59,269 bases of DNA. It comes from a virus. Its lineage: Duplodnaviria > Caudoviricetes. Positions within the stretch are counted from its first letter, which is position 1. Each line of letters opens with the position of its first letter. A program made the position numbers and the translations under genes. Below, in pieces: positions 38,797 through 38,912 of the stretch. The stretch spans positions 1 to 59,269 of the IMG/VR virus record IMGVR_UViG_3300010052_000141. One strand, written 5' to 3'. Below the pieces are notes generated by a model. That model made no database searches and was not told where the DNA came from. It worked only from the letters and a program-made list of their open reading frames with translations.

Positions 38797-38912
38797 GGCA
38801 CGGCTGGCGAGGCTAGGAGCGGCATGGTCCGGATTGGAATGGTCGGAATGGTCAGTCATGGCAGGCTTGGCAAGCAATGGCTGGGCGAGGGCAGGCTGGA
38901 TACGGCAGGCGC
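38797..38912 (+). repeat. Non-coding GGY-NN pentamer array 1 (two guide-like blocks)
   Basis: GGCAC GGCT | GGCGA GGCTA GGAGC GGCAT GGTCC GGATT GGAAT GGTC GGAAT GGTCA GTCAT GGCA | GGCTT GGCAA GCAAT GGCTG GGCGA GGGCA GGCTG GATAC GGCA | GGCGC. Confidence 0.9.

What the first reader, a model, noticed from the sequence alone, without database searches (positions are those of the whole stretch)
38864..38903. Guide block 2 decodes to a site in the small virion gene (31598-31621)
NN string TT AA AT TG GA CA TG (AC) reads F/L-N/K-I/M-W/C-E/D-Q/H-W/C. The sequence at 31598-31621 is TTC AAT ATC TGG GAA GCG TGG GTT (FNIWEAWV). Six of the first seven dinucleotides match, in codon register on the coding strand. 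The last NN of every block starts with A and probably belongs to the spacer.
Basis: seen in the sequence. Interest (0 to 1): 0.85.

Follow-up and report, generated by a model that had tools for sequence, protein, structure and literature searches.

The report
VIPR guide RNA aimed at sibling phage
The flagged 40 bases are one guide of a phage VIPR system, a CRISPR-like RNA-guided DNA silencer first described in 2026, and the guide spells a site in a small late gene exactly as a sibling phage carries it, while this phage's own copy differs at one guide-read codon.

Summary
The 5-nt units at 38864-38903 give NN = TT AA AT TG GA CA TG (AC), and 31598-31617 matches 6 of 7 units in codon register. 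Within the window alone this is near chance: 15 of 100 shuffles give a match.

The locus is a VIPR system (bioRxiv 10.64898/2026.04.26.720920). Gene 38034-38786 is a Vipr/Cas7-like RAMP. It is flanked on its own strand by two GGY-NN arrays, each holding two guides. 100 of 116 related loci have such arrays.

5 of 18 homologues of the small gene read FN[I/M]WEQW, a 7/7 match, including one 97-98% identical sibling. No permuted guide reached this (0 of 300).

Guides 3 and 4 match sibling tail-gene alleles 9/9, against 6/9 and 7/9 for the window's own copy. Three of four exact IMG/VR hits for guide 4 lie in tail-gene homologues.

The guide therefore most likely targets competing relatives. The self site is a near-match that probably escapes.

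VIPR is a known kind, and this scan has already found VIPR systems on other DNA. This locus is a new member.

The parts
38034..38786 (+). vipr: stand-alone Cas7-like RAMP protein (250 aa)
   Evidence: A profile of 36 homologues hits only PDB 36pp_D 'SUSP1 Vipr protein', E=4.3e-4, over the G-loop region. AF2 model pLDDT 85.5. Foldseek top hits are Csm3/Cas7 chains of type III-A and type VII complexes, E=1.1e-4, prob 1.00.
38797..38805 (+). array-1 leader: GGCAC followed by the 4-nt unit GGCT
   Evidence: Read. The same GGCAC-GGC(A/T) start opens the arrays of L003, L005, L006 and L084.
38806..38859 (+). guide 1 (11 units, one of only 4 nt)
   Evidence: Parsed. It matches L081:5245-5276 at 18/20 bases, and 0 of 200 permuted guides reach this. 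That site is the homologue of window 33045.
38860..38863 (+). 4-nt unit GGCA, the module boundary
   Evidence: Spacing between successive GGCAGGC in relatives peaks at 39, 44, 49, 54, 59 and 64 nt, which is 4+5k. Here the next GGCAGGC in phase is 44 nt on, at 38904.
38864..38903 (+). guide 2, the finding: 8 units, NN = TT AA AT TG GA CA TG AC
   Evidence: 7/7 match to FN[I/M]WEQW alleles in 5 of 18 homologues of the small gene, against 0 of 300 permuted guides.
38904..38913 (+). terminal GGCA plus a degenerate stub; the ribosome-binding site of the next gene follows
   Evidence: Read.
38942..39463 (+). candidate vap (VIPR accessory protein), 173 aa, fold unassigned
   Evidence: A homologue lies downstream of vipr in 78 of 116 distinct loci. 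AF2 pLDDT 89.8. No Foldseek match at E<=0.001. No Pfam or PADLOC hit; in NCBIfam only a sub-threshold TrbB row, E=0.017, 14.8 bits against a cut-off of 132. phrog_15946, function unknown.
39473..39481 (+). array-2 leader: GGCAC followed by GGCA
39482..39531 (+). guide 3 (10 units: GA AC CA GC CT TA GT TA AT AA)
   Evidence: The first 9 units spell DTQALYVYI, present in 4 of 119 tail homologues. The window's own allele DCQALFIYI matches 6/9. 0 of 300 permuted guides reach 9/9.
39532..39535 (+). 4-nt unit GGCA, the module boundary
   Evidence: GGCAGGC at 39532.
39536..39590 (+). guide 4 (11 units: GG AC CC GT GA CC AC AC GT AT CA)
   Evidence: The first 9 units spell GTPVDPTTV, present in 43 of 119 tail homologues. 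The window's own allele GSPVDPTTI matches 7/9. 0 of 300 permuted guides reach 9/9. The exact 9-unit DNA pattern has 4 IMG/VR hits, 3 of them in tail-gene homologues at the homologous site.
39600..39627 (+). GC-rich hairpin flanked by A and T runs, the likely end of the vipr-vap-array transcript
   Evidence: Sequence. The scan lists the hairpin, on the - strand. The T run after it on the + strand is read directly.
31598..31621 (+). the window's own near-match to guide 2 in the small late gene 31532-31879 (FNIWEAWV)
   Evidence: 6/7 units, 12/14 bases. The Ala codon is the mismatching unit.
33045..33077 (+). own near-match to guide 1 (EYARPFIDLQV)
   Evidence: In frame with ORF 32736-34364. By my count from the sequence it matches 7 of 10 informative units, against 8 of 10 (18/20 bases) in L081.
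40004..40030 (+). own near-match to guide 4 in tail gene 39692-40663
   Evidence: 16/20 bases over 10 units; 7/9 units. In frame.
40148..40174 (+). own near-match to guide 3 in the tail gene
   Evidence: 6/9 units. In frame.

Best explanation
Positions 38864-38903 are the second guide module of a VIPR (Viral Interference Programmable Repeat) locus carried by a complete 59-kb provirus of an alphaproteobacterium.

The locus consists of:
- vipr (38034-38786);
- array 1 with guides 1 and 2;
- a conserved partner gene (38942-39463);
- array 2 with guides 3 and 4;
- a terminator hairpin.

By the published mechanism, Vipr protomers polymerise along the RNA. Each protomer holds one GGY and presents the next two bases. 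These pair with double-stranded DNA while skipping every third target base, which is the codon wobble position, and the bound gene is silenced.

Guide 2 spells F-N-(I/M)-W-E-Q-W. That is the sequence at the homologous site of the small late gene in sibling phages. The carrier's own copy has Ala (GCG) in place of Gln (CAR), which changes both bases of one guide-read unit.

Guides 1, 3 and 4 show the same pattern at sites in the ejection-region gene and the tail gene. The most likely function is to silence late genes of related phages that superinfect or co-reside with this one, while the carrier's own alleles are escape variants.

Shown here: the family membership of the protein, the array grammar and its linkage to vipr, and the allele matches.

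Inferred: that the guides are transcribed and processed, that Vipr loads them, that a one-unit mismatch is enough for self-protection, and that the biological effect is exclusion of siblings.
For: Protein:
- The profile of 36 homologues hits only the solved SUSP1 Vipr, E=4.3e-4.
- The AF2 model (pLDDT 85.5) gives 18 Foldseek matches at E<=0.001. All that are listed are Cas7-family chains of type III and type VII complexes.

Array grammar:
- 126 unique arrays in relatives hold 2020 five-nt units. The third base is C in 1436 and T in 367. All 16 NN occur, 61 to 213 times each.
- Arrays lie on the vipr strand in 100 of 116 distinct loci and on the other strand in 6 (27,027 nt against 744 nt). 99 loci have one within 700 nt upstream or 1500 nt downstream of vipr.
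- Modules are bounded by GGCA at 4+5k spacing.

Skip rule, re-tested in this clade with 1048 nine-unit guide windows against 1.5 Mb:
- Hits of at least 17/18 bases number 9 with a 1-nt skip against 0 for reversed guides.
- They number 0 against 0 with no skip, and 1 against 3 with a 2-nt skip.

Guide 2:
- 5 of 18 homologues match 7/7. No permuted guide among 300 exceeds 5/7.
- Cluster members P0001 and P0141, 97-98% identical to the window's protein, read FNIWEQW.

Guides 3 and 4:
- 9/9 matches in 4 and 43 of 119 tail homologues, with 0 of 300 permuted guides each.
- One protein, P0019, carries both target alleles. It sits on a Logan contig of 57,252 nt, the same length as the contig of P0141. 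That they are one contig is an inference.
- Three of 4 exact IMG/VR hits of guide 4 are in tail-gene homologues, in codon register, with varying wobble bases.

Guide 1: 18/20 bases at the homologous site of L081, with 0 of 200 permuted guides.

Self against sibling: differences are concentrated in the guide footprints. 6 of 25 footprint residues differ against 20 of 303 outside them (one-sided Fisher p=0.0086). This test is post hoc.

Precedent: non-self match scores higher than self scores are reported in section 8 of 10.64898/2026.10.15.759431.
Against: - The window's arrays are short and degenerate. In guide 2, three of 8 units lack a clean GGY (GCAAT, GGGCA, GATAC).
- Guide 2's first NN base is T, while 96 of 106 boundaries in relatives have a purine there.
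- Guide 2 has only 7 matching units, below the 9-16 reported for type II. Its 8th unit (AC) matches no allele fully.
- The homologue sets were retrieved because of the self match, so the permutation nulls are not fully independent. My rough estimate for guide 2 alone is p between about 0.001 and 0.05.
The matches of guides 2 and 4 follow from the genetic code. The Leu in guide 3's target could be TTR rather than CTN.
- The exact 10-unit pattern of guide 2 has 0 hits in IMG/VR.
- In 301 Bradyrhizobium-genus genomes, hits with up to 3 mismatches equal the backwards control, 20 against 20.
- The self sites are 75-89% identical to the guides at base level. Self-binding is therefore not excluded by the published 80% criterion.
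- There are no expression data.
Confidence: 0.72

Rival explanations
1. Self-regulation. Guide 2 and the other three guides bind the phage's own late genes despite 1-3 mismatched units. They either help keep these genes silent in the lysogen or time their expression. On this reading the better match to sibling alleles is only shared ancestry.
For: All four best self sites lie in late or structural genes, on the coding strand and in codon register. Base-level identity to self is 12/14 for guide 2, 16/18 for guide 4 and 16/20 for guide 1. These reach or exceed the 80% criterion used for target calling in section 27 of the VIPR preprint.
Against: - Every mismatched unit of guides 2, 3 and 4 (1+3+2 units) is matched by the allele of one sibling lineage. 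That is what discrimination against the sibling predicts. A guide evolved for self would be expected to match self.
- The published controls found no self-target of 80% or more in three clades.
- The self allele of guide 2 changes both bases of the unit.
Confidence: 0.12
2. Guide 2 is a decaying or non-functional module, and its match to the small gene is coincidence. Only the other guides, or none, are active.
For: Within the window the match is near chance: 15 of 100 shuffles, and 64 of 300 permuted guides at base level. Three of 8 units depart from GGY. Over 10 units the site is not the best in the window. IMG/VR has no exact 10-unit hit. The FNIWEQW DNA pattern also occurs in an unrelated phage protein family, in 12 of 14 IMG/VR hits.
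Against: The 7/7 match occurs in 5 of 18 homologues, at the homologous position and in frame, against 0 of 300 permuted guides. The closest sibling carries it. Three other guides of the same locus behave identically.
Confidence: 0.12
3. The element is not a guide at all. It could be a small Trp-rich ORF (38786-38926, 46 aa), a binding array for a ring-shaped RNA-binding protein of the TRAP kind, a G-quadruplex-prone RNA, or a DNA-level structural repeat.
For: An ORF of 46 aa spans the array. The 5-nt period with a constant triplet resembles TRAP sites (recalled, not tested). GG runs recur every 5 nt.
Against: - A 5-nt period cannot encode a repeating peptide, and most relatives have vipr and the next gene abutting with no ORF between them.
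- Array length ranges from about 100 nt to 1.4 kb.
- The neighbouring gene is a Vipr/Cas7 homologue.
- The NN positions spell real gene alleles, which none of these rivals predicts.
Confidence: 0.03

Closest known systems
VIPR type II of Escherichia phage SUSP1 and the Pseudomonas fulva prophage (bioRxiv 10.64898/2026.04.26.720920; structures in 10.64898/2026.04.26.720927)
   Same: A stand-alone Vipr RAMP gene with one partner gene. GGY-NN pentanucleotide arrays lie on both sides on the same strand. Target matches follow the 1-nt-skip rule in codon register. Targets are in competing mobile elements.
   Different: - Vipr here is 250 aa against 202 aa, and only 48 residues align by HMM.
- I found no conserved 3' tail or pseudoknot.
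- Guides follow one another directly, separated by a 4-nt GGCA unit, and hold 7-12 units.
- The partner protein has no recognisable fold match.
- The host is an alphaproteobacterium.
- The targets are structural genes of sibling phages, not satellites or lysis-lysogeny regulators.
Staggered vrRNA arrays of other VIPR types (legend of fig. S18 of the same preprint, seen)
   Same: Back-to-back vrRNAs in which the end of one marks the start of the next, with a 1-nt overlap. A 4-nt GGCA unit between 5-nt units would look like this. Relatives carry arrays up to 1.4 kb long (L027).
   Different: I could see only the legend, not the figure or the supplementary tables. The equivalence and the VIPR type number (I-VII) are therefore not established.
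Solo and VIPR+ vrRNAs of SUSP1-family phages that target relatives' VIPR loci (10.64898/2026.10.15.759431, section 8)
   Same: Guides match relatives better than self. Some are aimed at the end of vipr. Here the L084 prophage guide matches the vipr 3' end and the ribosome-binding site of the next gene in the window and in 3 other loci at 17/18 bases. By my count from the sequence, it matches its own copy at only 14/18.
   Different: The window's own four guides aim at virion and late genes rather than at vipr or vrRNAs. The hosts are Alphaproteobacteria rather than Enterobacteriaceae.
Cas7/Csm3 backbone of Class 1 CRISPR effectors
   Same: Same RAMP fold. One protomer binds each repeat of the RNA, with periodic interruption of the guide-target duplex.
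   Different: Tandem Repeats Finder shows no repeat-spacer array. The period is 5 nt, with only 2 pairing bases per unit. The guides are hard-wired rather than acquired.

Membership tests
VIPR system | Vipr protein related to the solved or published Vipr | tested here: met
   The profile of 36 homologues gives a single PDB hit, 36pp_D 'SUSP1 Vipr protein', E=4.3e-4, over 48 aligned residues including the GvGDfR G-loop. The single sequence gives E=0.055. The match is weak but specific.
VIPR system | RAMP fold (RRM core) | tested here: met
   AF2 pLDDT 85.5, pTM 0.81. Foldseek gives 18 matches at E<=0.001, the top being 6ifn_F Csm3 (E=1.1e-4, prob 1.00, TM 0.38/0.42) and type VII Cas7. TM-scores are modest.
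[not shown]
   The G-loop aligns by sequence. The thumb was not inspected residue by residue. The VIA-align libraries were not available.
VIPR system | Arrays of GGY-NN (YNNGG) pentanucleotide repeats beside vipr on the same strand, with NN hypervariable | tested here: met
   The window has two arrays. Among relatives, 100 of 116 loci have one on the + strand and 6 on the - strand. The third base is Y in 1803 of 2020 units, and all 16 NN are used.
VIPR system | Targets obey the 1-nt-skip (NNx) rule, with the skipped base at the wobble position | tested here: met
   Hits of at least 17/18 bases number 9 with a 1-nt skip against 0 for reversed guides, and show no excess with 0 or 2 skips. Guide 4's exact hits lie in frame in tail genes with varying wobble bases. 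Guides 2, 3 and 4 match homologue alleles 7/7, 9/9 and 9/9.
VIPR system | Minimal locus of vipr plus one accessory (vap) gene | tested here: inconclusive
   The partner gene is present downstream in 78 of 116 loci. In most close relatives it abuts vipr directly, with overlapping or adjacent stop and start codons. Its fold and any relation to vap1-6 are unknown. Supplements naming the vap families were closed.
VIPR system | vrRNAs are expressed and co-purify with Vipr | not testable with these tools
   No RNA run was listed. This is noted only under Tried and rejected.
VIPR type II (SUSP1 clade) | About 100-nt vrRNAs of 9-16 repeats, capped by a conserved 3' tail with a pseudoknot | tested here: not met
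   Modules are 39-64 nt long and follow one another directly after a GGCA unit. No conserved non-repeat tail lies between modules. Rfam gives no hit at gathering level. I therefore do not file the locus under type II.
CRISPR-Cas (Class 1) | Repeat-spacer array and further cas genes next to the Cas7-like gene | tested here: not met
   Tandem Repeats Finder reports no repeats of CRISPR size anywhere in the window. Neighbouring ORFs give phage structural or unknown PHROGs and no Pfam hit.

The most novel reading that the evidence does not exclude
The guides have two jobs. They match sibling-phage alleles perfectly and so exclude siblings. Their 75-89% matches to the carrier's own tail, ejection-region and small late genes are also functional. 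These partial matches would give weak, reversible silencing of the prophage's own late operon, acting as a repressor-independent second lock on lysogeny. If so, VIPR also forces amino-acid divergence of virion proteins between sibling prophages, because escape requires changes at codon positions 1 and 2.
Probability: 0.12. Interest if true: 0.7.

Novelty: new member of a known kind. Interest (0 to 1): 0.42.

Why it matters
VIPR systems were described only in 2026 preprints, mainly from an E. coli phage and a Pseudomonas prophage. This locus adds a clean natural example in temperate phages of Rhizobiales-type hosts.

All four hard-wired guides point at structural-gene alleles of a sibling phage lineage. 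The carrier's own alleles differ exactly at guide-read codon positions. That is direct sequence evidence for kin discrimination and for VIPR-driven amino-acid escape in virion genes.

It also supplies matched target and escape allele pairs, such as FNIWEQW against FNIWEAW. These could be used to measure how many mismatched units VIPR tolerates.

Tried and rejected
Readings I considered before finding the literature and then dropped:
- a TRAP-like binding array;
- a two-tetrad G-quadruplex RNA;
- a DNA-level repeat;
- the 46-aa ORF 38786-38926.
I dropped them once the neighbouring gene proved to be a Vipr/Cas7 homologue and the NN positions spelled gene alleles.

Searches that gave nothing useful:
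- Tandem Repeats Finder shows no period-5 array at the finding.
- Rfam gives only sub-threshold rows, Thr_leader and ctRNA, over the terminator.
- INPHARED phages have no DNA match to either region.
- Guide 2 as an exact 10-unit pattern has 0 hits in IMG/VR.
- Guide 2 with up to 3 mismatches has 0 hits in its own record for 8 units and 0 in five genomes that hold the closest vipr homologues. In 301 genomes of the genus of G001 (the genome holding L083, which titles Bradyrhizobium) it has 20 hits, all at 3 mismatches, against 20 for the backwards control. That is noise.
- Guide 3's exact 9-unit pattern has 2 IMG/VR hits, both in an unrelated AT-rich sequence containing a stop codon.
- The FNIWEQW DNA pattern has 14 IMG/VR hits, none in a homologue of the small gene. 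Twelve lie in an unrelated protein family and two in non-coding context.
- A homologue search for the ejection-region protein returned only the window's own protein, so guide 1 rests on L081 alone.
- The skip-3 excess (24 hits) is array-against-homologous-array matching, with one exception that is unexplained (L083 to L011/L012).
- For gene B, Foldseek, Pfam and PADLOC gave nothing, and NCBIfam gave only a sub-threshold TrbB row.
- No RNA holder was listed for 37900-39700. One DNA run holds 0.23 of the words, and I did not lay it.

Tools I did not use: read laying, complex prediction, the search of protein representatives and the protein-atlas search.

Supplementary tables and figures of the VIPR preprints were closed. 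I could not check whether this clade is among the 667 published systems, or which type (I-VII) and which vap family it belongs to.
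Full report
1. What is at the coordinates

The finding lies in the 155-nt spacer between two + strand genes: gene A (38034-38786, 250 aa) and gene B (38942-39463, 173 aa). In strict 5-nt phase from 38864 the units are GGCTT GGCAA GCAAT GGCTG GGCGA GGGCA GGCTG GATAC.

The site 31598-31617 in ORF 31532-31879 reads TTC AAT ATC TGG GAA GCG TGG. It matches 6 of 7 NN, in frame, on the coding strand.

2. Is the self match more than chance?

On its own, barely.
- With up to 2 mismatches the pattern has one hit in the window against 0.17 expected, and 15 of 100 shuffles have at least one.
- Among permuted guides, 64 of 300 reach 12/14 bases and 5 of 300 reach 6/7 units. With the eighth unit, 26 of 300 reach 6 units. 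With ten units, 186 of 300 do, and another site becomes the best.
- Tandem Repeats Finder sees no period-5 array.
- A phased-GG scan singles out two + strand places, 38786-38920 and 39472-39600, on either side of gene B. Their scores are only just beyond shuffles.

3. Relatives make the repeat real

Gene A has many homologues in IMG/VR: 101 of 107 candidate stretches were confirmed and 80 loci kept. It also has 41 in GTDB genomes, the closest in Bradyrhizobium (84-87% identity) and Microvirga (83%) prophages.

In many close relatives genes A and B abut directly. Others carry inserts at that junction that are plainly GGCNN-periodic.

Across 116 distinct loci:
- 100 have a period-5 GG array on the strand of gene A and 6 on the other strand (27,027 nt against 744 nt);
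- 99 have one within 700 nt upstream or 1500 nt downstream of gene A.

L027 carries 1.4 kb of near-perfect GGCNN units between a terminator hairpin and the next gene.

In 126 unique arrays there are 2020 five-nt units. The third base is C in 1436 and T in 367, and all 16 NN occur between 61 and 213 times.

Four-nt units, mostly GGCA (138 of 312), punctuate the arrays. The distance between successive GGCAGGC peaks at 39, 44, 49, 54, 59 and 64 nt. That corresponds to GGCA plus 7-12 units.

4. What it is

Gene A alone weakly hits PDB 36pp_D, named 'SUSP1 Vipr protein' (E=0.055). A profile of 36 homologues hits only that chain, E=4.3e-4, across the glycine-rich loop.

A confident AF2 model (pLDDT 85.5) matches Csm3/Cas7 chains of type III-A and type VII CRISPR complexes (E down to 1.1e-4, prob 1.00).

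A literature search led to bioRxiv 10.64898/2026.04.26.720920. I read its abstract, sections 4, 10, 18, 20, 26 and 27, and passages found. It defines VIPR systems as follows:
- a phage-borne ancestral RAMP (Vipr), usually with one accessory gene (vap);
- vrRNAs made of YNNGG repeats whose NN pair with double-stranded DNA, skipping one target base per unit;
- the skipped base usually falls on the codon wobble position;
- the targets lie in competing phages, satellites and prophages.

Two companion preprints add detail. One gives the filament and triplex structures (10.64898/2026.04.26.720927; abstract and section 6). The other reports guides aimed at relatives' VIPR loci, with self scores lower than non-self scores (10.64898/2026.10.15.759431; abstract and sections 8 and 17). 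A fourth paper (10.64898/2026.10.21.760802) I saw only in the search listing.

5. Anatomy in the window

- Array 1: leader GGCAC, then GGCT; guide 1 (38806-38859, 11 units, one of 4 nt); GGCA; guide 2 (38864-38903, 8 units); GGCA plus a stub.
- Array 2: leader GGCAC, then GGCA; guide 3 (39482-39531, 10 units); GGCA; guide 4 (39536-39590, 11 units). A hairpin with a T run follows at 39600-39627.
- The distance from the GGCA at 38860 to the next in-phase GGCA at 38904 is 44 nt, a typical module length.
- There is no conserved tail between modules, so the locus is not type II. The legend of fig. S18 (staggered arrays that overlap by 1 nt) may describe this layout, but I could not see the figure.

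6. Re-test of the skip rule in this clade

I took 1048 nine-unit guide windows from all arrays and scored them against 1.5 Mb (the window plus 122 loci, with arrays masked). Hits of at least 17/18 bases were:
- 9 with a 1-nt skip, against 0 for reversed guides;
- 0 against 0 with no skip;
- 1 against 3 with a 2-nt skip;
- 24 with a 3-nt skip, almost all of them arrays matching homologous arrays.

One clear case stands out. A nine-unit guide of a Microvirga prophage (L084) is bounded by two GGCA units. It matches the last codons of vipr, which contain the ribosome-binding site of gene B, at 17/18 bases in the window (38763-38788) and in L007, L086 and L087. By my count from the sequence, it matches its own copy at only 14/18, because that copy uses different Arg codons.

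7. The real target of guide 2

A protein search with the 115-aa product of 31532-31879 gave 17 homologues. With L081 these make 18 (alignment).

The site reads FN-x-WE-x-W. The first x is I, E, M or Q. The second x is Q, G or S in all 18 homologues. The window's Ala is shared only by P0139, a 90%-cluster member that is identical to the window's protein apart from the first residue as recorded (M rather than V) and is not one of the 18.

FNIWEQW occurs in four homologues and FNMWEQW in one. F, N, I/M, W, E and Q each fix codon bases 1 and 2, so any DNA encoding these peptides matches guide 2 at 7/7 units. That makes 5 of 18 homologues, against 0 of 300 permuted guides, whose best score is at most 5.

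Two members of the window protein's own 90% cluster read FNIWEQW: P0001 and P0141, 97-98% identical to the window's protein. The window differs by Gln to Ala, a change of both bases of that unit.

The homologues were retrieved because of the self match. My honest estimate for guide 2 alone is therefore the self-match probability (0.02-0.2) multiplied by the chance that the one mismatched unit equals the sibling's allele (about 1 in 15).

8. The other guides behave the same way

- Guide 3 spells DTQALYVYI. Four of 119 tail-protein homologues carry it, while the window's own allele is DCQALFIYI (6/9).
- Guide 4 spells GTPVDPTTV. 43 of 119 homologues carry it, while the own allele is GSPVDPTTI (7/9).
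- For each, 0 of 300 permuted guides reach 9/9.
- P0019, 90% identical to the window's tail protein in the searched region, carries both target alleles. It lies on a Logan contig of 57,252 nt, the same length as the contig of P0141. I infer one sibling phage that carries perfect targets for guides 2, 3 and 4.
- At DNA level, guide 4's exact 9-unit pattern has four hits in IMG/VR. Three lie in tail-gene homologues (58-65% identity), at the homologous site, in frame, with varying wobble bases.
- Guide 1 matches L081 at the homologue of window 33045 with 18/20 bases, against 0 of 200 permuted guides.
- Differences between self and sibling are concentrated in the footprints: 6 of 25 residues differ inside them against 20 of 303 outside (p=0.0086, post hoc).

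9. Results against this reading

- Guide 2 is degenerate and short, and its eighth unit matches no allele fully.
- I found no exact or near-exact DNA target in IMG/VR or in 301 Bradyrhizobium-genus genomes.
- The sibling DNA could not be fetched.
- The self sites are 75-89% identical to the guides at base level, so self-binding is not excluded.
- There are no expression data.
- Gene B has no assignable fold.

10. Verdict

The system belongs to a known kind. VIPR was published as preprints in 2026, and this scan has already reported VIPR systems on at least eight other genomes. This locus is a new member in alphaproteobacterial temperate phages, with back-to-back modules separated by GGCA.

Noticed in passing
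window 38763-38788: The last codons of the window's vipr, which contain the ribosome-binding site of gene B, are matched at 17/18 bases in codon register by a nine-unit guide of a Microvirga zambiensis prophage (L084:3777-3821). By my count from the sequence, that prophage's own copy matches only 14/18 because it uses different Arg codons. The window's VIPR therefore appears to be a target of another VIPR.
   Followed up: partly
L027:3948-5386; also L063:3458-4918 and L064:4565-5242: Related phages carry very long GGCNN arrays, up to about 1.4 kb or roughly 280 units. In L027 the array starts right after a terminator hairpin and ends just before the next gene.
   Followed up: partly
window 31532-31879: The small target gene encodes three internal copies of a motif of the form (F/Y)xxW(E/L)xWVD, and guide 2 sits on the first copy. 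No PHROG, Pfam or NCBIfam hit, so the label 'virion gene' is unverified.
   Followed up: no
L131-L140, L143, L144 (IMG/VR): An unrelated protein family of AT-rich phage contigs contains ...AAS(V/I)PFNIWEQWMKD.... This resembles the small gene's ...NATVSFNIWEQW... beyond the seven searched residues. It could be coincidence or a shared motif.
   Followed up: no
L011/L012:3017-3058: One guide window of L083 matches the 5' part of vipr in L011/L012 at 17/18 bases under a 3-nt skip, not the 1-nt skip. It is the only skip-3 hit that is not array against array, and it is unexplained.
   Followed up: no
module boundaries in relatives, and window 38860, 39532: After GGCA-GGC the first variable base is a purine in 96 of 106 boundaries. 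The first unit of each guide may therefore be partly constrained, as a handle-like feature. The window's guide 2 has T there.
   Followed up: no
window 39692-40663: The database copy of the tail protein (P0018) has 303 aa, against 323 aa for the longest ORF, so the true start is probably about 20 codons downstream of 39692. Some homologues are named 'microcystin-dependent protein' by JGI.
   Followed up: no
window 12471-12545 and 21383-21458: The provirus carries tRNA-Thr(TGT) and tRNA-Gln(TTG) genes.
   Followed up: no
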